Source: Escherichia coli
Lineage (GTDB): Bacteria; Pseudomonadota; Gammaproteobacteria; Enterobacterales; Enterobacteriaceae
Length of the DNA: 64,000 bases
Strand: one strand, 5' to 3'
Assembly: GCF_009931435.1 (NCBI RefSeq)
Contig: NZ_CP043414.1
The notes beneath the pieces were generated by a model, which saw nothing but the letters and a program-made list of their open reading frames with translations, ran no database searches and was not told where the DNA came from. Shown one piece after another: positions 33,338 to 46,164 of the stretch; position 1 is the stretch's first letter, and every line of letters begins with the position of its first letter. Position numbers and translations under genes: made by a program.

Positions 33338-33442
33338 CCTGATGCGATGCTAGCGTGTTTATCATGCCTCCAGGCATTGCGCATGTCGCATCTGGCGATT
33401 TCCACCACTTACCCCAAATCCGCCATCAACACTTTGGATTTA
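33338..33442. repeat. Copy 2 of the direct repeat, overlapping the last ~11 codons of argA
   Basis: Pairs with 33179-33286; includes the argA C-terminal coding sequence KVLMADLG-stop. Confidence 0.6.
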
Positions 33443-34740
33443 CGCTGGTAGTTGTACAACTGCTTTTTGCTCTCGGGCAGTAAATCAATATCCACCGGGG
33501 TAAATCCACGTTCCTGGAACCAGTGAATACTGCGCGTGGTCAGTACAAACAATTTGCTTAATCCGCTTTGCTTCGCCTGAGCGGCAATGCGCTCCAGCAA
33601 AACCTCGCCCCTTGATGAGCTGCGGTAATCCGGGTGAACGGCCACACAGGCCATTTCCCCAATCTTCTCTTCCGGGAACGGATAGAGTGCTGCGCAGGCA
33701 ATAGTCGTGTTATCGCGCTGAATAATAGTGAATTTGTCGATTTCCATCTCCAGTTGCTCGCGAGAACGGCGTACCAGAATACCTTGCTGCTCCAGTGGGC
33801 GAATCAACTCCAGAATGCCGCCAATATCGTTGATGGTTGCGCGACGAATTTGCTCGGCGCTTTCCATCACAATCTGCGTACCGATACCGTCACGTGAGAA
33901 CAACTCTTGCAACAGCGCGCCATCTTCCTGGTAACTAATTAAATGACAGCGACGTACGCCGCTGCGGCAGGCTTTCACCGCACCACGCAAAAAGCGCACC
34001 GTACCGGAGTTGTAATCGCCTTTCTCTTCCTGAGCTTCTACCCGCGCTTGTGCTTCGTTAGGGAAAAGCTCGGAGACAATATCGCCGTCGTCATTAGTGA
34101 CGCCCTGTGAAGAGCAAAAACCAATCATCTTTTCAGCTTTCAGTTTGATGGCCAGTTGAGTGGCGATCTCTTCCGAGGTCAGATTAAAGCTCTCGCCAGT
34201 GACTGAAACCGCGACCGGCCCCAGCAGCACTATCGCACCGCTGTCCAGTTGACGATGAATCGCATCTTCGTCAATCCGCCGGATACGCCCGCTATGGCAG
34301 TAATCCACACCGTCATCCACGCCCAGCGGCTGGGCAATAATAAAATTGCCACTGACGACGTTGATATGCGCGCCCTGCAGCGGCGTGTTATTGAGACTCA
34401 TCGACAGGCGAGCAGTAATGTCCAGTTGCAATGTTCCCGCAGCCTGCTTCACCAGTTCTAGTGTTTTGGCGTCGGTCACGCGTATATTTTTGTGATATAG
34501 CGGTTCGTGGTGATGCGCTGCCAGATTCGCATCGATCTGCGGGCGCGCTCCATAGACCACGACCAGACGGATGCCGAGGCTGTGCAGCAACCCGATATCA
34601 TTAACGATACTGGAGAAATTCTCATGCTCAATGGCTTCACCGCCGAGCATGATGACAAACGTTTTTCCCCGGTGGGTATTGATATAAGGAACCGAATGGC
34701 GGAATCCCTCGACCAACTCGGTTTTACGTTCCTTCATCAC
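33409..34740 (-). CDS. argA: N-acetylglutamate synthase
   Basis: About 443 aa; start taken as GTG at 34738-34740 (an ATG one codon downstream is the alternative); AAK and GNAT domains. Confidence 0.9.
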
Positions 34741-34970
34741 GGCACACCTCTTTGCATGATTATTCGTAATTATTGTATTTTTATTCTGTTTTTTCACTGG
34801 GTGCAAGTGCAAATTTTACGCATGAGCAACTTTTTTATCAGTAATGCCGTGAATATAAAAAGAATGTTTACCGTTTATTAGATGACAGATTATGCGTCTT
34901 TCGCTAAAGTTTCCGGTCAAATTAGTCGTTTATTTGTTACACAGCTTAGATTTTTTTGCTCGGGAGATGC

Positions 34971-36224
34971 ATGTCGGGATCCAACACAGCAATCAGCCGT
35001 CGTCGTTTACTGCAAGGCGCGGGTGCCATGTGGCTATTGAGCGTAAGTCAGGTCAGTCTGGCTGCGGTCAGCCAGGTCGTGGCGGTGCGCGTCTGGCCTG
35101 CGTCCAGCTACACCCGTGTGACGGTAGAATCTAATCGTCAGCTGAAATATAAGCAGTTCGCGTTGAGTAACCCTGAACGCGTGGTGGTGGATATCGAAGA
35201 TGTAAACCTGAACTCAGTGCTCAAGGGGATGGCGGCACAAATTCGTGCTGATGACCCGTTCATCAAGTCGGCGCGCGTCGGGCAGTTTGACCCGCAAACC
35301 GTGCGGATGGTTTTTGAGTTAAAGCAAAACGTAAAACCGCAGCTGTTTGCCCTTGCTCCGGTCGCCGGGTTTAAAGAGCGTCTGGTGATGGATCTCTATC
35401 CTGCCAATGCTCAGGACATGCAGGACCCGCTGCTGGCGCTGCTGGAGGATTACAATAAAGGCGATCTCGAAAAGCAGGTGCCGCCTGCGCAGAGTGGCCC
35501 GCAGCCAGGCAAAGCAGGGCGCGATCGTCCGATTGTCATTATGCTTGACCCTGGCCATGGCGGCGAAGACTCCGGTGCGGTGGGGAAATACAAAACGCGT
35601 GAAAAAGACGTGGTATTGCAAATTGCCCGCCGTTTGCGCTCTCTGATTGAGAAAGAGGGCAATATGAAAGTTTACATGACCCGTAATGAAGACATCTTCA
35701 TTCCGTTGCAAGTGCGCGTAGCAAAAGCACAGAAACAGCGTGCTGACTTGTTTGTCTCTATTCATGCCGATGCCTTTACCAGTCGCCAGCCGAGCGGTTC
35801 ATCTGTGTTTGCGCTCTCTACCAAAGGTGCAACCAGTACCGCGGCAAAATATCTGGCGCAAACTCAGAACGCCTCGGACTTGATTGGTGGCGTGAGTAAG
35901 AGCGGCGACCGTTATGTCGACCATACTATGTTCGATATGGTGCAGTCGCTGACCATTGCCGACAGTCTGAAGTTTGGTAAAGCTGTGTTGAATAAGCTCG
36001 GTAAAATCAACAAGCTGCATAAAAATCAGGTTGAACAAGCCGGGTTTGCCGTGCTGAAAGCGCCTGATATACCCTCCATTTTGGTCGAAACGGCGTTTAT
36101 CAGTAACGTTGAGGAAGAACGTAAACTGAAAACGGCAACCTTCCAGCAGGAAGTTGCGGAATCAATCCTCGCAGGAATAAAAGCGTATTTTGCCGATGGG
36201 GCGACGCTGGCGAGAAGGGGATAA
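34971..36224 (+). CDS. amiC: N-acetylmuramoyl-L-alanine amidase AmiC
   Basis: 417 aa from the ATG at 34971 (RBS gggag); Tat signal [11 protein letters not shown]; amidase_3 domain. Confidence 0.9.
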
Positions 36225-36321
36225 TGTTTTTATTTATTCAATGAATTTATATTTCGTTGAATAGATAATATTTACCTGAATATTAGACGTTGGTTTTGTG
36301 ACTGATGTCGAATATTTGAAT

Positions 36322-36344
36322 GTCGGCTTGAAAAATAAGCCGAC
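36322..36344. other. Hairpin about 100 bp downstream of amiC
   Basis: Perfect 8-bp inverted repeat gtcggctt-gaaaaat-aagccgac; no U-tract. Confidence 0.3.
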
Positions 36345-36395
36345 CATCTCTTTAATTAAGCACAATTCCGTGTAATGTATATGCATTAGTTAATC

Positions 36396-36470
36396 ATCTT
36401 GTAACTGTTAAATCAGGCAAGGCAATGTTTGAAGTAATTATTACTTCTGACGTGCCTTGCCTTTTTTTTT
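36396..36470 (+). promoter_or_regulatory. RAT-like element overlapping a Rho-independent terminator (BglG/SacY-type antitermination leader)
   Basis: cttgtaactgttaaatcaggcaaggca resembles RAT sequences as I recall them; its 3' half forms the 5' arm of the hairpin caggcaaggca...tgccttgcc, followed by T9, just upstream of the antiterminator RBS. Confidence 0.55.
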
Positions 36471-36481
36471 GGAGCTATGGA

Positions 36482-37306
36482 ATGATCATCGAAAAAGTCA
36501 TGAACAATAATTGTGTACAGGCATCGATGAATGGACAGGAGGTTATCATTTCTGGGCCTGGCGTCGGTTACAACAAAAAATATGGAATGTCGGTCCCTGA
36601 GCATCCGGCTAACCGGATTTTTTATGTCAGAAATGAACAAAAAAATAAACTCTACAAATTGATTGAACATGTGGATATTGAGTATGTTTTTGTTGCCGAA
36701 AAAATAGTGCAATATGCAGAGAACAATCTCGAAAAAAATCTCAATCCATCGCTACTATTGATTCTTGCTGATCACATTTCGAATGCAATATCCCGAGTCG
36801 CTTCAGGCATACAAATTAATAATGTTTTCCTTGATGAAATCAAAGCGTTGTACAAAGCAGAGTATGCGATAAGTCGCGATGCATTAACTATCATTAATGA
36901 GCAATTTAGCGTTCAACTTCCTGATGATGAGATTGGTTTTATAGCATTGCATATTTTAAATAATTATGAAAATTCAGTTGATTATGAATCAGTACGGATT
37001 ATTGAGTTGTCGCAAATAATCACGGGGCTTATTGAAGTTGTTTATAACAGAAAGGTGGACAGAAGTTCATTTAATTATTCCAGGTTCATGATACACCTTA
37101 AATATTTTTCAAGTCGCGTATTATGCAATGAAAAAATAAAACAGAAAGATATTGGTGATCTCTATGAACAGTTTCTTGAGAAAGACATTCTGTTACAGCG
37201 CGCAATTCATGAAATTGAAAGGTATTTGTACGCCACTTTTAAATATGAATTGATTTTGGAAGAAAAACTATATCTCTCTATTCGCACCAAAGTATTAATG
37301 GACTAA
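36482..37306 (+). CDS. BglG/LicT-family transcription antiterminator (CAT RNA-binding domain + two PRDs)
   Basis: 274 aa from the ATG at 36482 (RBS ggag 8 nt upstream); N-terminal KVMNNNCV...GQEVIISGPGVGY matches the CAT domain; PRD-like histidine contexts; the ORF-track start at 36425 lies inside the terminator loop. Confidence 0.8.
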   Translation: MIIEKVMNNNCVQASMNGQEVIISGPGVGYNKKYGMSVPEHPANRIFYVRNEQKNKLYKLIEHVDIEYVFVAEKIVQYAENNLEKNLNPSLLLILADHISNAISRVASGIQINNVFLDEIKALYKAEYAISRDALTIINEQFSVQLPDDEIGFIALHILNNYENSVDYESVRIIELSQIITGLIEVVYNRKVDRSSFNYSRFMIHLKYFSSRVLCNEKIKQKDIGDLYEQFLEKDILLQRAIHEIERYLYATFKYELILEEKLYLSIRTKVLMD

Positions 37307-37337
37307 TTATATATAACATTTATATGAGATAACCCGC

Positions 37338-38918
37338 ATGAAACAAAAGAAAGCCTGGAGTTTTTTTCAGAGCCTGGGAAAGGCATTTATGTATCCCATC
37401 GCTCTGCTAAGTGTATGTGGCATGATGTTAGGGCTAGGAAGTGGTTTAGCCAGCGATGATATGGCAAAATTAATTCCACTACTGGCTATTCCCGTAATTA
37501 AAACCATTCTTGATTTTATTGTTAGCCTTGGTTTGTTTGCCTTTGTCAATTTACCTGTATTGTTTGCGATAGCTATACCTCTGGGGTTATTAAAAGAGAA
37601 AGAGGATAAAGCCTATGGCGCTTTTTCTGGCTTAATTGGTTTCATGGCGATGCATCTGGGAACGAACTTTTATCTTAAACAACATGACTTATTGGTCGCT
37701 GCTGATCAAATGTCGACACATGGGCAAACCATTATTCTGGGAATCCAGTCCTACAATACCAGTGTGTTGGGTGGGATTATAGCAGGATTATTAGTCGCCA
37801 GTATGTATAAAAAGATCGTTAACTTACGTATTCCTGAATCATTAGGATTTTATAGTGGCCCACGCCTGGTGCCTATTATTACACTGATTGTGATGAGTGG
37901 ATTTGGTCTGATCATCCCTTTTATCTGGCCGCCATTTTTCAATCTTTTCATGCTCATTGGCCACTGGATTTCAACTTCCGGTCCTGTTGGCTATTTTTTC
38001 TATGCAGTCGCCGAACGCGTGACGATACCTTTTGGTTTAAATCACCTGGTGACGTCAGTTTTCCGCTTTACCCCCATCGGCGGATCGGCAGTGATCGGCG
38101 GCGAAGAGTATTATGGCACCCTGAACATGTTTATGGCGTACGTCAAAGAGAATGCGGTCATTCCGCTGGATTTGGCGGGGAAAATGGAACAGGGCAAACT
38201 GATGATTCAGTATGGTCTGGCTGGTGCCGCGCTGGCGATGTATCGCACTGCTCATGCTCAAAACAGAAAAGCTATCAAAGCATTGCTTATTTCCGGGGTG
38301 CTTACAGTCATTATTGGCGGCGTCAGCGAACCGATTGAGTTTCTGTTCTTATTTGTCAGTCCACTGCTGTTTGTCTTCCATGCCTTTATGAATGGATTCG
38401 CCAACATGGTCTTGCCATATATGGGCGTGAAGATGGGATTTACTGGCGATCTGATTCAATTTATTAGCTTTGGCGTATTGCGTGGCACAAGAACAGGTTG
38501 GCCAATAGCGGTGTGTGTCGAAGTGGCCTATTTCTTTATTTATTACTTTGTGTTCCGTTGGACTATTCTCAAATTTAACCTGATGACGGTAGGCCGTGAA
38601 GAGTCCAGTCCTGTCACGCTGAACGCTCATGAGGATACGGCTATAGCGGATATCCCAACGCTTGATAAATCAGAGCTGCAAGCAGCGGAGCAGATGGTTA
38701 AGGCACTTGGTGGTAAAGAGAATATTAAATCCCTGGATAATTGCGTAACTCGTTTACGTTTAACAATCGCAGATATGGGATTGATTGACGAGGCAGCAAT
38801 AAAAAGAGCTGGCGGAATTGCGGTTGTTAAACTTGATCAAAATACCCTACAAGTCATTATCGGTACTAAAGTCATCGCCTTGCGTCGGGATATGGATAAC
38901 TACATGGGGATATGCTGA
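37338..38918 (+). CDS. PTS glucose-family EIICB component (no EIIA domain)
   Basis: 526 aa; multi-TM EIIC followed by C-terminal EIIB with cysteine motif LDNCVTRLRL. Confidence 0.85.
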   Translation: MKQKKAWSFFQSLGKAFMYPIALLSVCGMMLGLGSGLASDDMAKLIPLLAIPVIKTILDFIVSLGLFAFVNLPVLFAIAIPLGLLKEKEDKAYGAFSGLIGFMAMHLGTNFYLKQHDLLVAADQMSTHGQTIILGIQSYNTSVLGGIIAGLLVASMYKKIVNLRIPESLGFYSGPRLVPIITLIVMSGFGLIIPFIWPPFFNLFMLIGHWISTSGPVGYFFYAVAERVTIPFGLNHLVTSVFRFTPIGGSAVIGGEEYYGTLNMFMAYVKENAVIPLDLAGKMEQGKLMIQYGLAGAALAMYRTAHAQNRKAIKALLISGVLTVIIGGVSEPIEFLFLFVSPLLFVFHAFMNGFANMVLPYMGVKMGFTGDLIQFISFGVLRGTRTGWPIAVCVEVAYFFIYYFVFRWTILKFNLMTVGREESSPVTLNAHEDTAIADIPTLDKSELQAAEQMVKALGGKENIKSLDNCVTRLRLTIADMGLIDEAAIKRAGGIAVVKLDQNTLQVIIGTKVIALRRDMDNYMGIC

Positions 38919-40093
38919 TGGATGTTTTTAATACTCCTATTTCCCGCAAAGGAACATATTGTACCCAATGGGACTTTTGCGAGGACAGATTTGGTGTAAA
39001 AGATGTATTACCATTCTCTATTTCAGATATGGATCTTCCGATACCGGAAGCTATCATCAGGGCATTAAAAAAACGTCTGGAACACCCGATTTTAGGGTAC
39101 AGCCGTTGGCAGCATGATGACTATCTGAATGCGATAGTCAATTGGTATCATCAACAATATAAAACTGAAATCAAACCAGAATGGATCACCTATAGCCCAA
39201 GCGTGATGTACTCCATTGCTAAAGCAATAGAGTTATTGACATCGCATGGTGATAATATTCTCGTTTTTACACCTGTCTATAATGCATTTTTTGATATAAT
39301 TAAACATAGCGAGAGAAATATTCTGACAGCCTCTTTGATTATAAAAAATGAGGGGGGCTACGCTATCAATTGGCAAGATTTTGATCTTAAGATTCAAAGC
39401 GCAAAGATGGTGTTATTATGTAATCCTCATAACCCGACAGGAACCGTCTGGTCGGAAGAAGATCTGCATAAAATCGCTGCAAGCTGTGCAAGACATAATG
39501 TCTGGTTATGTTCAGATGAAATTCACAGTGATTTTGTTTTTAATCGTAGCTTTACATCTGCGCTTAAAATAAAAAAAGAAAAAGTAGTGGTGTTTAATTC
39601 GATATCGAAGACATTTAATGTTCCTGCGCTAACAGGATCGTATATGATTTCAACTGACGATAATTTTAATCATGAGTTCAGAACGATATCAAGATATCGC
39701 GATTTTGTAAACTCCCCATCCGTACTGAATATAATTGCAACTATTATTGCCTATAACGAATGTGAGGGATGGTTAACGTCATTAAAGGCACATATTGCCT
39801 CTAACATTCAATTCACCCAGCAGTATCTGAACGAAAATACTCCAGAATTGATCGTAAGGCCTGCTGATGGTTGCTATTTTTCGTGGATAGATTGCTCTGC
39901 TATTGGTTATCCCTTTGATGAATTCTACAGTCGATTAATTCATGAAGGCAAAGTGGGCATTATGGCGGGGAATGTCTATGGAACGGAGGGGGAGGGCTAC
40001 CTTCGTCTGAACCTGGCCTGCGGTCGAGAAAAATTATATATGGGGCTTACGCGTCTTGCGAGTGTAATTAAAAATATTAATCAAGGAAAATAA
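38912..40093 (+). CDS. MalY/PatB-family PLP-dependent C-S beta-lyase (class I/II aminotransferase fold)
   Basis: 393 aa; TYCTQWDF...DRFG N-terminal motif and PLP lysine context SISKTFNVPALTG; 7-bp overlap with the PTS gene. Confidence 0.85.
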   Translation: MLMDVFNTPISRKGTYCTQWDFCEDRFGVKDVLPFSISDMDLPIPEAIIRALKKRLEHPILGYSRWQHDDYLNAIVNWYHQQYKTEIKPEWITYSPSVMYSIAKAIELLTSHGDNILVFTPVYNAFFDIIKHSERNILTASLIIKNEGGYAINWQDFDLKIQSAKMVLLCNPHNPTGTVWSEEDLHKIAASCARHNVWLCSDEIHSDFVFNRSFTSALKIKKEKVVVFNSISKTFNVPALTGSYMISTDDNFNHEFRTISRYRDFVNSPSVLNIIATIIAYNECEGWLTSLKAHIASNIQFTQQYLNENTPELIVRPADGCYFSWIDCSAIGYPFDEFYSRLIHEGKVGIMAGNVYGTEGEGYLRLNLACGREKLYMGLTRLASVIKNINQGK

Positions 40094-40095
40094 AA

Positions 40096-40692
40096 ATGAA
40101 CAGCACGGATCTTATCCATCTCATTAAACATTTTATGCGTAACGAACATAAAGCAGTTGAAGAAGTTATTGATTCCCCCCTTTCGGAGGTCGCAAATTTA
40201 ATTAAAGTATTACAGTCTTGTCAGGGGAAAGTTGTTTTTATTGGTGTCGGTAAGTCCGGTATTATTGCCCGAAAACTCGCCGCAACATTTGCCAGCACTG
40301 GAACTCCCTCGTTTTTTGTTCACGGTACTGAAGCCGTACACGGCGATCTTGGGATGGTGGCGAAAGATGATGTTGTTATTCTTATTTCAAACAGTGGTGA
40401 GACGACAGAAATCCTGGCAACACTACCTAGTCTGAAAAAAATGGGTAATTATTTGATCTCCTTTACCCGCAGTCATCGCTCATCGCTTGCGATAAGTTGT
40501 GATTTATCCGTTGAAATTCCCGTAAAAAGTGAGGCGGATAATTTAGGTTTAGCGCCGTCATGCTCATCAACAGTCGTTCTGGTTGTTGGTGATGCGGTGG
40601 CGCTTGCGCTCTCCGAATTGAAAAAGTTTACTCGTGCTGATTTCGGCTTATATCATCCAGGAGGTGCGCTCGGTATTAAAGCAAACTCATAA
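40096..40692 (+). CDS. Single SIS-domain phosphosugar isomerase, arabinose-5-phosphate isomerase-like, lacking CBS domains
   Basis: 198 aa; GVGKSGIIARKLAATFASTGTPSFFVH and SNSGET motifs resemble the KpsF/GutQ SIS domain; no CBS pair. Confidence 0.8.
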   Translation: MNSTDLIHLIKHFMRNEHKAVEEVIDSPLSEVANLIKVLQSCQGKVVFIGVGKSGIIARKLAATFASTGTPSFFVHGTEAVHGDLGMVAKDDVVILISNSGETTEILATLPSLKKMGNYLISFTRSHRSSLAISCDLSVEIPVKSEADNLGLAPSCSSTVVLVVGDAVALALSELKKFTRADFGLYHPGGALGIKANS

Positions 40693-40762
40693 TTTTAGAA
40701 TATAAAACAGTAACCGGTCACGCCATCTTTTGGGGTGGCGTTCATTGATGTGAGTGTCAGCT

Positions 40763-41710
40763 ATGAAAAACGTTCTGGTCACCGTTCCCAGCTTTTCAGC
40801 GCGTTGTGTTTCTGCCAGCAAGCTGCTAAGAGAAAATCATTTTAACCTTATTATCAAGAATAATGTGGAGCATCTGGTTAAATCAGAATCCACAGTATTA
40901 CGAGAATCTATTTGCGCAGTCATTGCCGGAAAAGATTGTTATCAAGCGGATACGTTATCGCGACTACCAGGAGTGAAAATAATATCGAGATTCGGGACAG
41001 GGATTGATAATATTGATCTTCATACGGCTCGACAATCAGGTATTGTGGTCAATAATGCTGTTGGGATTAATTCAAATGCAGTCGCGGAATTTATCATTGG
41101 TCTTATTTTTGCGAGCATGAGAAATATCCCCGGTAGCTATCATGCGATGCAAAATGGTTATTGGGGCGAGTCGCATGGCTGCGAGTTACAAGGTAAACGT
41201 ATTGGCCTGCTTGGCTACGGCAATATTGGCAAAACACTGGCGAAAAGGTTATCTGGTTTTGATGTTGAGCTTTTAGCTTTTGACAAACAACCCGATTTCC
41301 AGGCCGCAGGCAAAGATGGAGTTCAGTTCGTATCAATTGAAGATATCTTTATGCAGTCTCATGTCATCATCGTTCTTTTGCCATTTTCTCCGGAGCTGGA
41401 GAACTTCATTAGTCATAAATATTTGTCGATGATGCGCAATGGTGCTCTTATCATCAACGCCGCAAGGGGAAAGTTGCTGGATGAGGGTGCTTTACTTCAG
41501 GTAATTGAAGAACGAAATGTTTTTGCAGCGCTGGATGTGTTTAGCTCTGAACCGCTAGCGCAATTTAGCCCATTGCTACATGCCAGGAATATCATTACAA
41601 CGCCGCATATTGCGGCCGCCACCGTTGAGTCATACCAGCAAACCGGGATATACGTTGCCAGGTCGATAATAGATTTCTTTGCAGGAAGGGAGATAAAAAA
41701 CGTGCTGTGA
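40763..41710 (+). CDS. D-isomer-specific 2-hydroxyacid dehydrogenase family protein (NAD-binding)
   Basis: About 315 aa from the ATG at 40763 (a GTG at 40754 is possible); GxGxxG motif GLLGYGNIGKTLAKRL; C-terminal catalytic His region TPHIAAAT. Confidence 0.8.
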   Translation: MKNVLVTVPSFSARCVSASKLLRENHFNLIIKNNVEHLVKSESTVLRESICAVIAGKDCYQADTLSRLPGVKIISRFGTGIDNIDLHTARQSGIVVNNAVGINSNAVAEFIIGLIFASMRNIPGSYHAMQNGYWGESHGCELQGKRIGLLGYGNIGKTLAKRLSGFDVELLAFDKQPDFQAAGKDGVQFVSIEDIFMQSHVIIVLLPFSPELENFISHKYLSMMRNGALIINAARGKLLDEGALLQVIEERNVFAALDVFSSEPLAQFSPLLHARNIITTPHIAAATVESYQQTGIYVARSIIDFFAGREIKNVL

Positions 41711-41736
41711 GTTCAGCTAAGGAAGATTTCAGGTAC

Positions 41737-41770
41737 AAAAAAACCGCAATTTGTGAAACACATTGCGGTT
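41737..41770 (-). terminator. Rho-independent terminator of the tRNA-fMet operon (minus strand)
   Basis: On the minus strand, hairpin aaaccgcaatgtgtttcacaaattgcggttt followed by T7. Confidence 0.6.
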
Positions 41771-41788
41771 TATCAGCATCATAAGTGT

Positions 41789-41865
<77 letters not shown>

Positions 41866-41898
41866 TCACCGTACTGCTTTACTTCATCAAATTTTGAT

Positions 41899-41975
<77 letters not shown>

Positions 41976-42008
41976 TCACCGTACTGCTTTACTTCATCAA
42001 ATTTTAAT

Positions 42009-42085
<77 letters not shown>

Positions 42086-42293
42086 TCCGTGGATGCGCAC
42101 TATACTCCGCTCGCGTTTTCATGCAACCTTTTTTTTACCCAGATCACGGATTTGGTATGATTTTGAGCAAAAACAAATCACTAAAGCCTGTTTTTTGTGC
42201 AAAATTTGCGTCAGGGAGAGGCTGCTCATTTCATTAAACGCAGCGGTTTGTTATCTTCATTGCGCCTTATTTTTTAAACTGAAGAAGAGAACA

Positions 42294-43391
42294 ATGAAAG
42301 GACGTTGGGTAAAGTACCTTCTTATGGGCACGGTTGTGGCAATGCTTGCCGCCTGCTCTTCCAAACCAACCGATCGCGGACAGCAATATAAAGACGGGAA
42401 ATTTACCCAGCCTTTCTCTCTGGTAAACCAGCCAGATGCCGTTGGCGCGCCAATTAACGCCGGTGATTTTGCCGAGCAAATTAACCATATCCGTACTTCG
42501 TCACCGCGTCTGTATGGCAACCAGAGTAATGTTTATAATGCGGTGCAGGAGTGGCTACGCGCAGGCGGTGATACCCGCAATATGCGTCAGTTCGGCATTG
42601 ACGCCTGGCAGATGGAAGGTGCCGACAACTATGGCAACGTGCAGTTTACGGGCTATTACACGCCTGTCATTCAGGCGCGCCATACCCGTCAGGGCGAGTT
42701 CCAGTATCCTATTTACCGTATGCCGCCAAAACGTGGTCGTCTGCCGTCTCGTGCGGAGATCTACGCGGGAGCATTGAGCGATAAATACATCCTCGCTTAC
42801 AGCAACTCTCTGATGGATAACTTCATTATGGATGTGCAGGGTAGCGGGTATATCGATTTTGGTGATGGCAGTCCGCTTAACTTCTTCAGCTATGCCGGAA
42901 AGAATGGTCATGCCTATCGCAGTATTGGTAAGGTGCTGATTGACCGTGGCGAAGTGAAAAAAGAAGATATGTCGATGCAGGCGATTCGTCACTGGGGTGA
43001 AACACACAGTGAAGCCGAGGTTCGCGAGCTGCTGGAACAGAACCCGTCTTTCGTCTTCTTTAAACCGCAATCTTTTGCTCCGGTGAAAGGGGCAAGTGCG
43101 GTGCCGCTGGTTGGTCGCGCTTCAGTTGCGTCCGATCGTTCCATTATCCCGCCTGGTACAACCTTACTGGCAGAAGTGCCGCTGCTGGATAATAACGGCA
43201 AATTTAACGGTCAGTACGAACTGCGGCTGATGGTGGCGCTGGATGTCGGTGGTGCAATCAAAGGCCAACACTTCGATATTTATCAAGGTATCGGGCCGGA
43301 AGCCGGACACCGCGCAGGTTGGTACAACCACTATGGACGTGTTTGGGTGCTGAAAACCGCCCCGGGCGCAGGTAACGTCTTTAGCGGCTGA
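42294..43391 (+). CDS. mltA: Membrane-bound lytic murein transglycosylase A (lipoprotein)
   Basis: 365 aa from the ATG at 42294; signal peptide with lipobox LAACSS; the longer ORF-track start at 42012 would read through the tRNA genes. Confidence 0.9.
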   Translation: MKGRWVKYLLMGTVVAMLAACSSKPTDRGQQYKDGKFTQPFSLVNQPDAVGAPINAGDFAEQINHIRTSSPRLYGNQSNVYNAVQEWLRAGGDTRNMRQFGIDAWQMEGADNYGNVQFTGYYTPVIQARHTRQGEFQYPIYRMPPKRGRLPSRAEIYAGALSDKYILAYSNSLMDNFIMDVQGSGYIDFGDGSPLNFFSYAGKNGHAYRSIGKVLIDRGEVKKEDMSMQAIRHWGETHSEAEVRELLEQNPSFVFFKPQSFAPVKGASAVPLVGRASVASDRSIIPPGTTLLAEVPLLDNNGKFNGQYELRLMVALDVGGAIKGQHFDIYQGIGPEAGHRAGWYNHYGRVWVLKTAPGAGNVFSG

Positions 43392-43467
43392 TGTGTTATT
43401 CTGTATACCGTTTTGACGGATACGACAGGGTGAGGGATAACCTCGCCCTTTTTAATTCTGAGGTGCT

Positions 43468-44274
43468 ATGTCTGTGGTAATTAGTGATGCATGGCGTCAG
43501 CGTTTTGGTGGCACTGCGCGTCTGTATGGTGAAAAAGCGTTGCAACTGTTTGCTGATGCGCATATTTGTGTGGTCGGTATCGGTGGCGTTGGTTCCTGGG
43601 CGGCGGAAGCGCTGGCGCGCACGGGTATTGGCGCAATCACACTTATCGATATGGATGATGTGTGCGTCACTAATACCAATCGGCAAATTCACGCGCTGCG
43701 AGATAACGTCGGGCTGGCCAAAGCGGAAGTCATGGCCGAACGTATTCGCCAGATTAACCCGGAGTGCCGTGTAACGGTGGTGGATGACTTCGTGACGCCG
43801 GATAACGTAGCGCAATATATGAGTGCCGGTTATTCGTACGTGATTGATGCCATTGATAGTGTGCGACCCAAAGCGGCGCTGATTGCTTATTGTCGGCGCA
43901 ACAAAATCCCTCTGGTCACGACTGGTGGTGCTGGTGGGCAGATTGATCCGACGCAGATTCAGGTTACCGATCTGGCGAAAACGATTCAGGACCCGCTGGC
44001 GGCGAAGTTGCGCGAGCGCCTGAAAAGCGATTTTGGCGTAGTGAAAAACAGCAAAGGTAAGCTCGGCGTGGATTGCGTGTTCTCTACCGAAGCGCTGGTG
44101 TACCCGCAGTCAGACGGTACGGTGTGCGCGATGAAAGCCACGGCAGAAGGGCCGAAGCGGATGGATTGTGCATCTGGATTTGGTGCGGCGACGATGGTGA
44201 CCGCCACCTTTGGTTTTGTTGCGGTTTCTCATGCGTTGAAGAAGATGATGGCGAAAGCGGCGCGTCAGGGGTAA
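43468..44274 (+). CDS. tcdA: tRNA threonylcarbamoyladenosine dehydratase (E1-like)
   Basis: 268 aa; ThiF/MoeB-like motif VVGIGGVGSWAAEALARTGIG. Confidence 0.9.
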   Translation: MSVVISDAWRQRFGGTARLYGEKALQLFADAHICVVGIGGVGSWAAEALARTGIGAITLIDMDDVCVTNTNRQIHALRDNVGLAKAEVMAERIRQINPECRVTVVDDFVTPDNVAQYMSAGYSYVIDAIDSVRPKAALIAYCRRNKIPLVTTGGAGGQIDPTQIQVTDLAKTIQDPLAAKLRERLKSDFGVVKNSKGKLGVDCVFSTEALVYPQSDGTVCAMKATAEGPKRMDCASGFGAATMVTATFGFVAVSHALKKMMAKAARQG

Positions 44275-44278
44275 ACAA

Positions 44279-44313
44279 TCAGGTCGGATGCGACGCGAAC
44301 GTCTTATCCGACC
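44279..44313. repeat. REP-like palindrome between convergent tcdA and csdE
   Basis: caggtcggatgcgacgcgaacgtcttatccgacctg. Confidence 0.5.
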
Positions 44314-44324
44314 TGGTTTTGTGC

Positions 44325-44768
44325 TTAACCCTGCTTTGCCGCCGCGATAATCGCCTCGCTTAACGCATTCAACCCCTGACTGCGAGAGGCGCTAAGTTGC
44401 GCACGCAATCCCAGCTCATCAAACAATGCCAGCGGCGACTGTGCTTGCAATTCGGCGGCGGTTTTCCCCTCAACGGCAGTCAACAACACCGCCAGCAGGC
44501 CGCGCACAATGCGTCCTTCGCTGTCGCCAAAGAAATGCATCGTGCCGTTTTCAGCCACGGTATATCCCAGCCAGACGCGGTTTTCGCATCCGGCGATCTC
44601 TTTAGCCTGCGCTTTTAACTCGTCTGGCAAAGCTGGAAGCTGTTTCCCCAACATAATTAGCTGACGATATTTGTCTTCCCATTGAGTCAACGGCGCGAAA
44701 GTTTCGTGTAACGTCTTTACGGTAACGGTTGTGCCGAACGGATGTCCGGCGTATTGCGGGTTCGTCAT
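44325..44768 (-). CDS. csdE: Sulfur acceptor protein (SufE-like)
   Basis: 147 aa; adjacent to and overlapping csdA. Confidence 0.9.
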
Positions 44769-45973
44769 TAATCCACCAATAATTCCAGCGCACGGTCAAC
44801 GGCATTCACCAGCGCATCTACATCACTCTTTGTATTATATGGCGCAAAAGAGGCGCGCAGTGTGCCGGTTACGCCTAATTCTGCCAGTAGCGGCTGAGCG
44901 CAATGCTGCCCGGCCCGCAGGGCAATGCCGTACTCTGCCAACAGCGTCACCATATCGCTGTGATGAACGCCAGCAAAATCAAAGGCCAGCAGGCTGGAAT
45001 CCTGGCAGCGGAATGAACGAAAGCCTGGACGTTTCGCCAGCGCTTCTTCTGCCAGCGTTGCTAAGCTACGGCTCCAGCTTTCGGCCTGGTTGATATCATA
45101 ATCTGCCAGCCATTCCAGCGCCGCGCTTAATCCTATGACACCAGCGACATTTGGCGTTCCAGCTTCCAGTTTCCACGGCGCAGATTGAGTCGTGAAGCCG
45201 TCAAAACTCACTTCGTGAACCATTTTGCCGCCGCCCAGCCAGGGCGACATCGCTTCCAGCAGTTCTGATTTGCCATACAGCACGCCGATACCTGTCGGGC
45301 CATACAGTTTGTGACCTGAAAAAGCATAGAAATCAATATCCAGTTGCTGAACATCCGCGGGGAAATGCACCGCCCCCTGAGCACCATCAACCATCACCAC
45401 CATCCCGGCTGAATGAGCAAAGGTAATCGCTCGCGCCAGATCCGGGCAACCGCCAGTAACGTTCGACATCTGACCCAACGCCAGAATCCGACTATGGGGA
45501 GTAATCAGTTCAGGCAACAAATCGATATCTGGCAACCGCTGCGCATTAAGCGGCAATTTCAGCACTTTGGCTCCGGTTTGTTGGGCGACCATCAGCCAGG
45601 GGACGAGGTTGGCGTGATGCTCTGCCACACTGACAATAATTTCATCGCCCGGTTGCAGACGCGGACGCGCATAGCATTGCGCCACCATGTTGATGGATTC
45701 AGTGGTGCCACGCGTCCAGACGATAGTTTTGTCATCTGGTGCATTCAGTAATTGCGCCACTTTTTCCCGTGCAGCTTCGTAACGCGCGGTCAGGCGTTGG
45801 GCCTCGGCAAACTGGCTACGATGGACGTTTCCGGCGCTCAGGCTGTAAAACTGTCGGGTTGCTTCAACCACGGCTTCAGGTTTAAGCGCGGTCGCGGCAC
45901 TGTCGAGATAGACGCCCGCATCCTGTAGCGCGGGAAACTGGGCGCGAAATTGCGCGGGATTAAAAACGTTCAT
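44768..45973 (-). CDS. csdA: Cysteine desulfurase / cysteine sulfinate desulfinase (PLP)
   Basis: 401 aa from the ATG at 45973; class V aminotransferase, PLP lysine context SGHKLYGP. Confidence 0.9.
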
Positions 45974-46164
45974 GGTACTCCTCGGCTTGATGCACCGATC
46001 GTGACGCAAAATTCACTTTGATACAAGGAGAGTGCTAACCATCAGAATTATCTGGATATCCTGGCGAAGCCGCGTAAGTAACATATGCTAAATAGTGTTA
46101 GGCGTTAATTTTAGCCTGTTAATCAATACTATTAAGATTTATTAATCGCTTTAAGGAGAAGATG

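What the first reader, a model, noticed from the sequence alone, without database searches (positions are those of the whole stretch)
38912..40093. Second MalY-like C-S lyase coupled to a PTS permease but with an antiterminator instead of MalI
The EIICB + MalY-like pair mirrors the malX-malY arrangement, yet regulation is by a BglG-type antiterminator rather than a LacI-type repressor. MalY in K-12 is both a cystathionine beta-lyase-like enzyme and a protein that binds MalT; a paralog could cross-talk with the maltose regulon or cleave a C-S or C-N bond in the transported substrate.
Basis: inference. Interest (0 to 1): 0.4.

Follow-up and report, generated by a model that had tools for sequence, protein, structure and literature searches.

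The report
MalY-type lyase in ExPEC "malX" operon
This is a real, intact MalY-type PLP lyase gene in an already described five-gene sugar-uptake (PTS) operon that carries the classic ExPEC "malX" virulence marker; it most likely processes the sugar derivative the transporter imports rather than regulating the maltose system, and its substrate is still unknown.

Summary
Window 38912/38918-40093 (+) is an intact 391-393 aa MalY/PatB-family PLP enzyme. It is translationally coupled to a MalX-like EIICB and preceded by a LicT/BglG-type antiterminator. I found the antiterminator's RNA target: a RAT-like element overlapping a strong leader terminator.

The locus is already known. It is a low-GC cassette between amiC and tRNA-Met metV, matching CFT073 c3405-c3410 of PAI-metV. 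The ExPEC "malX PAI marker" PCR primers land inside it. It is present in 31% of complete E. coli genomes. The whole cassette is orthologous to C. difficile CD3031-CD3027.

MalT cross-talk is unlikely: none of the 8 MalY residues that contact MalT is identical here. Action on the transported substrate is well supported. Twelve signature residues define a MalY subfamily, and the window protein has all of them. In an independent sample of 80 loci, all 11 with the full signature lie next to a PTS EIIC gene, against 0 of 68 without it (p ~1e-13).

The substrate is unknown. My inference is a sugar carrying an alpha-amino acid with a beta-leaving group. Verdict: already known locus, function unsolved, modest interest.

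The parts
36225..41788 (+). Low-GC (about 35-46%) accessory cassette. It replaces the 73-bp amiC-metV spacer of K-12, running exactly from the amiC stop codon to the 3' end of the first tRNA-Met.
   Evidence: Composition profile; comparison with K-12; tRNAs.
36396..36424 (+). RAT-like antiterminator target (aTCTTGTAACTGTTAAATCAGGCAAGGCA). Its 3' part overlaps the 5' arm of the leader terminator.
   Evidence: Sequence. The same motif TTGTWACTG-N-CAGGCA sits upstream of, or inside, the orthologous cassettes of Citrobacter, other E. coli alleles and C. difficile. Variants occur in Enterobacter, L012 and L013. The hairpin forms in 84% of cells, with one compensatory G-C to A-U pair.
36415..36470 (+). 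Intrinsic leader terminator: a long stem (36415-36462) followed by a run of U, lying before the antiterminator gene.
   Evidence: RNA fold: dG -29.6 kcal/mol, z -4.6, 0 of 200 shuffles fold as well.
36482..37306 (+). LicT/BglG-type transcription antiterminator, 274 aa (CAT RNA-binding domain, PRD1, degenerate PRD2).
   Evidence: Pfam CAT_RBD and PRD. The NCBIfam LicT profile is matched end to end at 228 bits, below its equivalog cutoff. It is 37% identical to the C. difficile orthologue. H98, H157 and H205 are kept; the fourth conserved His is Arg267. The 36425 start in the ORF list lies inside the terminator and is spurious.
37338..38918 (+). PTS EIICB permease of the Glc family, MalX-like, 526 aa, with EIIB phospho-Cys469. 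The cassette has no EIIA.
   Evidence: Pfam EIIC and EIIB. TIGR02004 malX scores 537 bits against a cutoff of 632. Identity is 42% to K-12 MalX and 68% to the C. difficile EIICB. The Cys motif is DNCVTRLRL.
37183..38105 (+). Target of the ExPEC 'malX / PAI marker' PCR (primers RPAi-f and RPAi-r). It spans the 3' end of the antiterminator gene and the 5' half of the EIICB gene. This allele has 2 and 4 primer mismatches.
   Evidence: Both primers match exactly in strain 83972. Primer sequences are listed in PMC12058657.
38912..40093 (+). The finding: a MalY-subfamily PLP-dependent C-beta lyase (probable start 38918), translationally coupled to the EIICB gene.
40096..40692 (+). SIS-only KpsF/GutQ-type sugar-phosphate isomerase, 198 aa, with no CBS domains. 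It is the counterpart of CFT073 c3406, reported to have arabinose-5-phosphate isomerase activity.
   Evidence: Pfam SIS. NCBIfam KdsD, KpsF and GutQ match the SIS part only. It is 52% identical to the C. difficile orthologue. Mosberg 2011 is cited (the paper itself is not held).
40763..41710 (+). D-isomer-specific 2-hydroxyacid dehydrogenase (PGDH-like), 315 aa. It is present in the E. coli and Citrobacter versions of the cassette only.
   Evidence: Pfam 2-Hacid_dh_C and 2-Hacid_dh; NCBIfam; contexts; Rossmann motif.
41743..41769 (.). Hairpin between the dehydrogenase gene and tRNA-Met, with an A-run on one side and TTT on the other. It probably acts as a bidirectional terminator.
   Evidence: Sequence read directly. 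Not tested further.
41789..42085 (-). Three tRNA-Met (CAU) genes (metZWV) that bound the cassette.
   Evidence: ARAGORN; Rfam.

Best explanation
The gene encodes an active PLP-dependent C-beta lyase of the MalY subfamily. It serves as the cytoplasmic cargo-processing enzyme of an inducible PTS catabolic operon: antiterminator, EIICB, lyase, SIS isomerase, 2-hydroxyacid dehydrogenase.

Proposed mechanism. Transcription starts upstream of a leader in which a RAT element overlaps an intrinsic terminator. When the unknown substrate is being transported, the EIICB drains phosphate from the antiterminator's PRD1. The antiterminator then binds the RAT, blocks terminator formation and lets the operon, including its own gene, be read through. 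The EIICB takes phosphate from the general EI/HPr/EIIA-Glc chain, because the cassette has no EIIA. It imports and phosphorylates a glucoside-like compound that I infer carries an alpha-amino acid moiety with a leaving group on C-beta. The lyase performs an alpha,beta-elimination to give pyruvate, ammonium and the phosphorylated sugar part. The SIS isomerase and the dehydrogenase feed the products into central metabolism. The protein is not expected to bind MalT.

Shown here: family and subfamily membership, intact catalytic columns, translational coupling, the RAT/terminator, conservation of the cassette from Firmicutes to enterobacteria, and the strict PTS linkage of the subfamily. Inferred: the direction of regulation, the chemistry of the reaction, and the nature of the substrate.
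For: Family: TIGR04350 is above its cutoff. The best PDB hit is MalY itself.

Catalytic columns: the positions equivalent to MalY Y61, Y121, N173, D201, H204, S230, S232, K233 and R365 are all conserved.

Subfamily: the protein groups with K-12 MalY in a clade that excludes PatB and 4dgt. It has 12 of 12 clade-signature residues: T16, Q17, D23, R24, S36, R63, W64, S95, G242, S268, M351, K374 in MalY numbering.

PTS linkage: 13 of the 14 clade members whose context I read sit next to PTS permease genes. In an independent sample of 80 species, 11 of 11 full-signature loci have a same-strand PTS EIIC within 4 kb (8 of them within 103 nt upstream). None of the 68 loci with 2 or fewer signature residues does (Fisher p 1e-13).

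Elimination chemistry: one relative is followed by a RidA enamine/imine deaminase gene. C. difficile MalY has cysteine desulfhydrase activity in vitro (PMC6143707 and PMC5767170). L. sakei MalY has beta-lyase activity and also lies in a PTS cluster.

Operon: the EIICB stop overlaps the lyase start, and the lyase-SIS gap is 2 nt. The C. difficile orthologues are co-regulated as one unit.

Regulation: RAT plus terminator.

Selection: dN/dS 0.12-0.14.

Against MalT binding: 0 of 8 contact residues are identical.
Against: No substrate is known for this operon in any organism. The literature calls it an 'unknown carbohydrate' (Mosberg 2011, abstract recalled from memory; the paper is not held).

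The only activities demonstrated for relatives are generic ones: cystathionine or cysteine beta-lyase and racemase.

The SIS protein's demonstrated activity (arabinose-5-P to ribulose-5-P) does not obviously fit a hexose PTS product.

Bootstrap support for the whole MalY clade is only 51% in a neighbour-joining tree.

The signature residues were derived from the same tree, although the PTS-linkage test used independent loci.

The covariation evidence for the RAT hairpin is thin: one compensatory pair in 10 sequences.

The promoter was not located.

The MalT prediction rests on sequence only.
Confidence: 0.62

Rival explanations
1. It is a MalY-like moonlighting regulator. The protein binds MalT (or another STAND-type activator) and links the presence of its PTS substrate to repression of the maltose regulon, as K-12 MalY does.
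For: Its closest solved relative is MalY. It shares the MalY-clade signature. Like malY, it lies directly downstream of a MalX-type permease gene.
Against: All 8 MalT-contact positions differ. Charges are changed or reversed (E185 to H, A84 to E, A221 to K), and in the multiple alignment a 2-residue deletion falls at S218/N219. V. furnissii MalY fails to repress with only two of these positions changed. The contact patch also varies freely among the cassette orthologues, including the two other E. coli alleles, which is not expected for a conserved interface.
Confidence: 0.07
2. It is a general sulfur-amino-acid enzyme (cystathionine beta-lyase or cysteine desulfhydrase, a MetC backup and H2S producer), and its position in a PTS operon is incidental.
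For: K-12 MalY, C. difficile MalY and L. sakei MalY all show these activities in vitro. RefSeq and UniRef name relatives 'cysteine-S-conjugate beta-lyase'.
Against: The MalY-signature subfamily is PTS-linked in 11 of 11 independent species, against 0 of 68 for the rest of the family. The gene is translationally coupled to the permease gene. Regulation is by a sugar-PTS antiterminator, not by a sulfur regulator. The 12 subfamily-specific residues imply a substrate pocket different from that of PatB-type enzymes.
Confidence: 0.15
3. It works as a racemase/epimerase or aminotransferase on an amino-sugar-acid or amino acid conjugate, not as a lyase. The dehydrogenase then handles the resulting 2-oxo or 2-hydroxy acid.
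For: L. sakei MalY is a broad amino acid racemase as well as a beta-lyase. The fold is that of class I/II aminotransferases. A 2-hydroxyacid dehydrogenase is co-encoded in the enterobacterial cassette.
Against: The dehydrogenase is absent from the C. difficile, Enterobacter, L012 and L013 versions, so it is not a core partner. A RidA gene next to one relative points to enamine-producing elimination. No aminotransferase activity is reported for any close relative in the papers read.
Confidence: 0.12

Closest known systems
E. coli CFT073 c3405-c3410 in PAI-metV (the ExPEC 'malX' PAI marker locus)
   Same: It occupies the same chromosomal site (amiC / tRNA-Met metV) and has the same five genes in the same order. 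The RPAi 'malX' primers match the cassette exactly in the B2 strain 83972. PMC2831201 places c3405-c3410, annotated 'PTS maltose/glucose specific', in PAI-CFT073-metV. The BEN2908 paper lists the same five ORFs as genomic region GR19. I regard this as the same locus.
   Different: The window carries a divergent allele: the lyase is 95% identical at nucleotide level to the B2 allele and 88-89% to two others. It also lacks the type VI secretion cluster that follows the cassette in 83972. I did not align CFT073 itself.
C. difficile CD3031-CD3027 operon (antiterminator, 'malX' IIBC, 'malY', phosphosugar isomerase, IIA)
   Same: The first four genes are orthologous and in the same order: EIICB 68%, lyase 48%, SIS 52% and antiterminator 37% identity. 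The RAT motif is the same.
   Different: C. difficile has its own EIIA and no dehydrogenase. Its RAT-terminator units (four tandem copies) lie between the antiterminator and EIICB genes, not in front of the antiterminator gene.
E. coli K-12 malI / malX-malY
   Same: A MalX-type EIICB gene is followed directly by a MalY-subfamily lyase gene, and the clade signature residues are shared.
   Different: Identity is only 36% (lyase) and 42% (EIICB). K-12 uses the LacI-type repressor MalI and has no SIS or dehydrogenase genes. K-12 MalY has the MalT-binding patch, which is absent here.
BglG/LicT/GlcT-type antitermination (E. coli bglGFB, B. subtilis licT-bglPH, glcT-ptsG)
   Same: The regulator has a CAT RNA-binding domain plus PRDs. 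A RAT hairpin overlaps an intrinsic terminator. As in bglG, the regulator gene lies downstream of a controlled terminator. The comparison with the bgl and glcT systems rests on my own knowledge.
   Different: The scores are below the equivalog cutoffs for LicT, GlcT and BglG. The fourth conserved PRD histidine is Arg in the E. coli and Citrobacter proteins. The inducer is unknown.
gutQ in the glucitol PTS operon, and SIS-only arabinose-5-P isomerases (CFT073 c3406, Clostridium tetani API)
   Same: A KpsF/GutQ-type isomerase is encoded inside a PTS operon, and its role there is unexplained.
   Different: Here the isomerase lacks the CBS pair and is consistently paired with a PLP lyase.

Membership tests
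MalY/PatB family C-S lyases (TIGR04350; class I/II aminotransferase fold) | Full-length match to the family profile above the curated cutoff | tested here: met
   366.2 bits against a cutoff of 340, profile positions 1-383 of 384. Pfam PF00155 at 5e-48.
MalY/PatB family C-S lyases (TIGR04350; class I/II aminotransferase fold) | PLP-binding lysine and conserved PLP-pocket and carboxylate-binding residues | tested here: met
   K233 (SKTF motif), Y63, Y123, N174, D202, H205, S230, S232 and R365 align with MalY Y61, Y121, N173, D201, H204, S230, S232, K233 and R365. These columns are invariant across 28 family members.
MalY/PatB family C-S lyases (TIGR04350; class I/II aminotransferase fold) | Beta C-S lyase activity | not testable with these tools
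   Activity is shown only for relatives: K-12 MalY, C. difficile MalY and L. sakei MalY.
MalY subfamily (PTS-linked branch, as defined here) | Twelve signature residues: T16, Q17, D23, R24, S36, R63, W64, S95, G242, S268, M351, K374 (MalY numbering) | tested here: met
   12 of 12 are present: T18, Q19, D25, R26, S38, R65, W66, S97, G242, S268, M351, K374.
MalY subfamily (PTS-linked branch, as defined here) | Gene adjacent to a PTS EIIC gene on the same strand | tested here: met
   The EIICB stop overlaps the lyase start. The rule holds in 11 of 11 independent full-signature loci and in 0 of 68 others.
MalY sensu stricto (MalT-sequestering repressor) | MalT-contact patch: A84, C181, D182, E185, S218, N219, A221, R222 | tested here: not met
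   0 of 8 residues are identical; D182 to E is the only conservative change.
MalY sensu stricto (MalT-sequestering repressor) | Physical binding to MalT and repression of mal genes | not testable with these tools
   This needs a pull-down and a reporter assay.
MetC-type cystathionine beta-lyase (Cys/Met-metabolism PLP family, PF01053) | Match to the Cys_Met_Meta_PP domain | tested here: not met
   PF00155 was the only Pfam family reported at E <= 1e-3.
BglG/LicT-type antiterminator system (for the regulator of the operon) | CAT RNA-binding domain followed by two PRDs | tested here: met
   CAT_RBD at residues 2-56 and PRD at 74-161. The LicT profile is matched over positions 1-269 of 273, so the PRD2 region is covered, but at 228 bits against an equivalog cutoff of 300.
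BglG/LicT-type antiterminator system (for the regulator of the operon) | RAT RNA element overlapping an intrinsic terminator in the controlled transcript | tested here: met
   RAT-like 36396-24 overlaps the terminator stem 36415-62, which is followed by a U-run. The motif is conserved in orthologous cassettes. The hairpin is supported in 84% of cells, with one compensatory pair.
BglG/LicT-type antiterminator system (for the regulator of the operon) | Four conserved phosphorylatable histidines (two per PRD) | tested here: inconclusive
   H98, H157 and H205 are present. The fourth position is R267 in E. coli and Citrobacter but His in Enterobacter, C. difficile and L012. The correspondence to LicT H100/H159/H207/H269 rests on my own knowledge.
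MalX (TIGR02004 maltose/glucose EIICB), for the partner permease | Score above the curated cutoff | tested here: not met
   536.6 bits against a cutoff of 632.2. MalX is the best-scoring model, ahead of PtsG (353) and NagE (324). The permease is MalX-like but not a MalX equivalog.

The most novel reading that the evidence does not exclude
MalY-subfamily lyases, including K-12 MalY itself, are dedicated processing enzymes for PTS cargo. On this reading, the EIICB-lyase(-SIS) modules import and phosphorylate sugar-amino acid conjugates, for example O- or S-glycosyl serine/cysteine or related glycated amino acids or peptides from host or diet. The lyase splits these into a sugar phosphate plus pyruvate and ammonium. 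The subfamily-specific basic and polar residues (R63, K374, Q17, S36) would then form the pocket for the phospho-sugar. MalT repression by K-12 MalY would be a lineage-specific add-on. The ExPEC 'malX' marker operon would encode use of a host-derived glyco-amino acid relevant to urinary-tract fitness.
Probability: 0.3. Interest if true: 0.6.

Novelty: already known. Interest (0 to 1): 0.3.

Why it matters
The cassette is used worldwide as an ExPEC virulence marker ('malX'). Its deletion is reported to reduce CFT073 fitness in mice (Mosberg 2011, recalled from memory; the paper is not held). Yet nobody knows what it imports or what its lyase does. [quoted passage not shown]

Two results make the question more testable. 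First, the MalT-binding patch is absent here. Second, the MalY signature is tied strictly to PTS permeases across phyla. Together they shift the working hypothesis from 'regulator or generic cystathionase' to 'cargo-processing enzyme'. They also supply a reporter for substrate screening: the RAT/terminator leader.

Tried and rejected
1. Rfam found no family in 35900-42300 apart from the tRNAs. Rfam did not report a match at the RAT-like element.
2. The consensus promoter scan found nothing convincing upstream of the RAT, and the region's hit count was no higher than in shuffled sequence. The promoter remains unassigned.
3. Mosberg 2011 (PMC3133213) and Clausen 2000 (PMC305623) are not held. 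Statements about c3406 activity and the mouse phenotype therefore rest on secondary citations and on memory. I could not place the signature residues in the MalY structure.
4. I first took PDB 4dgt/4dq6 to be the C. difficile operon enzyme. It is a different paralogue that falls outside the MalY clade.
5. I asked whether the 88%-identity E. coli alleles sit at a second locus. They do not; all are at amiC-metV.
6. L015 (P0125) has no PTS gene in the sequence held. The truncated upstream ORF is not an EIIB.
It missed the close cassette orthologues, and no SIS or antiterminator hits were found in those 80 loci.
8. I did not run a structure prediction, because the tools do not expose model coordinates, and a residue-to-active-site distance analysis was the only thing I needed from a model.
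Full report
WHAT IS THERE

The window is an Escherichia chromosome segment: recD, argA, amiC, cassette, three tRNA-Met genes, mltA, tcdA, csdE, csdA. Between the amiC stop codon (36224) and the 3' end of the first tRNA-Met (41789) lies a 5.5-kb stretch of about 35-46% GC inside a region of about 54% GC. It replaces the 73-bp amiC-metV spacer of K-12 exactly, from stop codon to tRNA end.

The stretch carries five co-directional genes:
- a CAT_RBD+PRD antiterminator (36482-37306);
- a MalX-like EIICB (37338-38918);
- the MalY/PatB-family protein of the finding (38912 or 38918 to 40093);
- a 198-aa SIS-only KpsF/GutQ-type isomerase (40096-40692);
- a D-2-hydroxyacid dehydrogenase (40763-41710).

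The lyase start overlaps the EIICB stop (ATGCTGATG). The SIS gene starts 2 nt after the lyase stop. The one correction is that the annotated start is the second ATG, 38918.

IS IT A MalY-LIKE ENZYME?

Yes.
- It passes the curated PatB-family cutoff (366 bits against 340).
- Its best solved relative is E. coli MalY (1d2f, 3e-85), at 36% identity.
- The columns of the PLP lysine and the surrounding pocket are intact.
- In a neighbour-joining tree of 152 family members, it falls with K-12 MalY in a 22-member clade that excludes B. subtilis PatB (6qp3) and C. difficile 4dgt. Bootstrap support for the clade is 51%. The inner group holding the window protein, Citrobacter, Enterobacter and three Firmicute relatives has 100%.
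- Twelve columns separate this clade from the other 130 sequences: 95-100% conserved inside, at most 14% outside. The window protein has all twelve.
- MetC-type enzymes belong to another Pfam family, which was not reported for this protein.
- Between E. coli alleles the gene shows dN/dS of 0.12-0.14, so it is functional.

DOES IT TALK TO MalT?

Probably not. The cryo-EM structure of MalT-MalY (PMC10427625) names the MalY contact residues: A84, C181, D182, E185, S218, N219, A221, R222. That paper confirms them with the D182A/E185A/S218A triple mutant. It also notes that V. furnissii MalY, which differs at D182 and S218 only, does not repress.

In the window protein none of the eight is identical. 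The multiple alignment gives E, E, E, H, gap, gap, K, K; the pairwise alignments give E, E, E, H, L, K, K, K. The patch also varies freely among the cassette orthologues and among E. coli alleles.

REGULATION

The RNA target is present too.

At 36396-36424 the leader reads aTCTTGTAACTGTTAAATCAGGCAAGGCA. This is a close match to the RAT consensus of LicT/SacY-type systems (consensus from my own knowledge). Its 3' end forms the 5' arm of a long terminator hairpin (36415-36462) followed by a run of U. The fold has dG -29.6 kcal/mol and z -4.6, and none of 200 shuffles folds as well.

The same motif stands in the same place in Citrobacter and the other E. coli alleles. In C. difficile it occurs as four tandem RAT-terminator units between the antiterminator and EIICB genes. 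Variant forms occur in Enterobacter and two Firmicute contigs. On a 10-sequence alignment the hairpin is formed in 84% of cells, with one compensatory G-C to A-U exchange. That is thin as covariation evidence, but it fits the motif and its position.

The antiterminator keeps three of the four conserved PRD histidines. The last is Arg in E. coli and Citrobacter. The ORF-list start at 36425 lies inside the terminator and is an artefact.

IT IS A KNOWN LOCUS
- The gene is in 1688 of 5426 complete E. coli genomes, always at amiC-metV.
- PMC2831201 places c3405-c3410, 'PTS maltose/glucose specific', in PAI-CFT073-metV.
- A 2026 paper lists the same five ORFs, giving 36% identity to MalY, 41% to MalX and 30% to BglG.
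- The SIS gene corresponds to c3406, the 'unique arabinose 5-phosphate isomerase' of Mosberg et al. 2011 (cited; the paper itself is not held).
- The Johnson and Stell 'malX / PAI marker' primers (listed in PMC12058657) match strain 83972 exactly, at the end of the antiterminator gene and in the EIICB gene, 922 bp apart. They match the window at 37183-37204 and 38084-38105 with 2 and 4 mismatches.
- In 83972 the cassette is followed by a type VI secretion cluster. In the window it abuts the tRNAs.

The whole cassette is also orthologous to C. difficile CD3031-CD3027, which encodes antiterminator, 'malX', 'malY', phosphosugar isomerase and IIA. [quoted passage not shown]

WHAT DOES THE LYASE DO?

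Here the evidence goes beyond annotation. Of the 14 clade members whose context I read, 13 lie beside PTS permease genes:
- Most have a MalX-type EIICB immediately upstream.
- Three sit with PTS components of other families, and two of these clusters also hold M20, M42 or M24 peptidases.
- One is followed by RidA, the enamine/imine deaminase that cleans up after PLP beta-eliminations.
- Six have the SIS gene.

As an independent test I scanned one genome per species and obtained 80 loci. I scored each locus for the 12 signature residues and for a PTS EIIC gene within 4 kb.
- All 11 loci with 12 of 12 signature residues have a same-strand EIIC gene. In 8 of them it lies within 103 nt upstream. 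The hosts include Brachyspira, Lachnospiraceae, Enterocloster, Terrisporobacter, Photorhabdus, Klebsiella, Enterobacter and Citrobacter werkmanii.
- None of the 68 loci with 2 or fewer signature residues has one.
- A Streptomyces locus with 9 of 12 has none.
- Fisher's exact test gives p = 1e-13.

L. sakei MalY, a beta-lyase and racemase, is also reported inside a PTS cluster.

I conclude that the MalY subfamily co-evolves with PTS permeases and most likely acts on what they deliver. The regulators are interchangeable: MalI, BglG-type antiterminators, or Mga/PRD activators.

The enzyme keeps the carboxylate-binding Arg of alpha-amino-acid-specific class I enzymes. Its relatives catalyse alpha,beta-eliminations. 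So the likeliest substrate is a phosphorylated sugar linked to an alpha-amino acid through a C-beta heteroatom. This is inference. No compound has been identified, and the SIS protein's reported pentose-phosphate activity is not explained by it.

RIVALS
- A MalT-type regulatory role: about 0.07.
- A generic sulfur-amino-acid enzyme: about 0.15. This is weakened by the linkage statistics, the translational coupling and the sugar-type regulation.
- A racemase or aminotransferase role: about 0.12. The dehydrogenase is not a core partner, since it is absent from the C. difficile, Enterobacter, L012 and L013 versions.

VERDICT

The locus and its architecture are already published and are widely used as a marker. 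Interest is modest (0.3). The open question is the substrate. The strict link between the MalY signature and PTS permeases, together with the RAT leader as a reporter, makes that question testable.

Noticed in passing
window 33377-46088 compared with L002, L007, L008, L016: The core genes flanking the cassette (argA, amiC, mltA, tcdA, csdE) are only 93-96.6% identical to K-12 and to three other E. coli genomes. AmiC is 100% identical at protein level with dS of about 0.33. Either the window comes from a divergent Escherichia lineage or this region is unusually polymorphic. Divergence within the cassette (dS 0.15-0.49) is similar to that of the flank, which suggests long residence at this site rather than recent import.
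   Followed up: partly
L003 5995-6380 (C. difficile): Four tandem RAT-terminator units of about 104 nt each lie between the antiterminator gene and the EIICB gene. This is an unusually reiterated antitermination checkpoint.
   Followed up: no
window 37183-37204 and 38084-38105: The standard ExPEC 'malX' PCR primers have 2 and 4 mismatches to this allele. Strains carrying it may therefore score malX-negative by PCR although they hold the complete operon.
   Followed up: partly
L007 7184-7215; proteins P0002-P0005, P0008, P0010: In another E. coli allele the lyase and SIS ORFs overlap by 32 nt. Several E. coli and Shigella records carry a fused lyase-SIS protein of 550-592 aa. This is either a frameshift fusion or an annotation artefact.
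   Followed up: no
L001 10764-11710: In the closest genome (strain R32_14_1F, 99.7% identical over the cassette) the dehydrogenase gene is annotated as a frameshifted pseudogene. In the window it is intact.
   Followed up: no
L017 and L018: MalY-clade lyases also occur in PTS clusters of other PTS families, together with M20, M42 and M24 peptidases. This recalls the E. coli fry/ypdEF PTS-peptidase operon (comparison from memory) and hints at glycated amino acid or peptide substrates.
   Followed up: partly
L014 6210-6584: A RidA (Ribonuc_L-PSP) gene directly follows an EIICB-lyase pair in a metagenomic contig.
   Followed up: no
window 36322-36344: A 9-bp GC-rich hairpin (GTCGGCTT...AAGCCGAC) without a T-tract lies between the amiC stop and the RAT leader. 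Its role is unknown; it may be an amiC terminator remnant or a protein-binding site.
   Followed up: no
window 42012-43391: The 459-aa ORF in the mechanical ORF list runs through the tRNA-Met genes. The real mltA gene starts near 42294 (RefSeq annotation of L001), so the long ORF is an artefact.
   Followed up: yes
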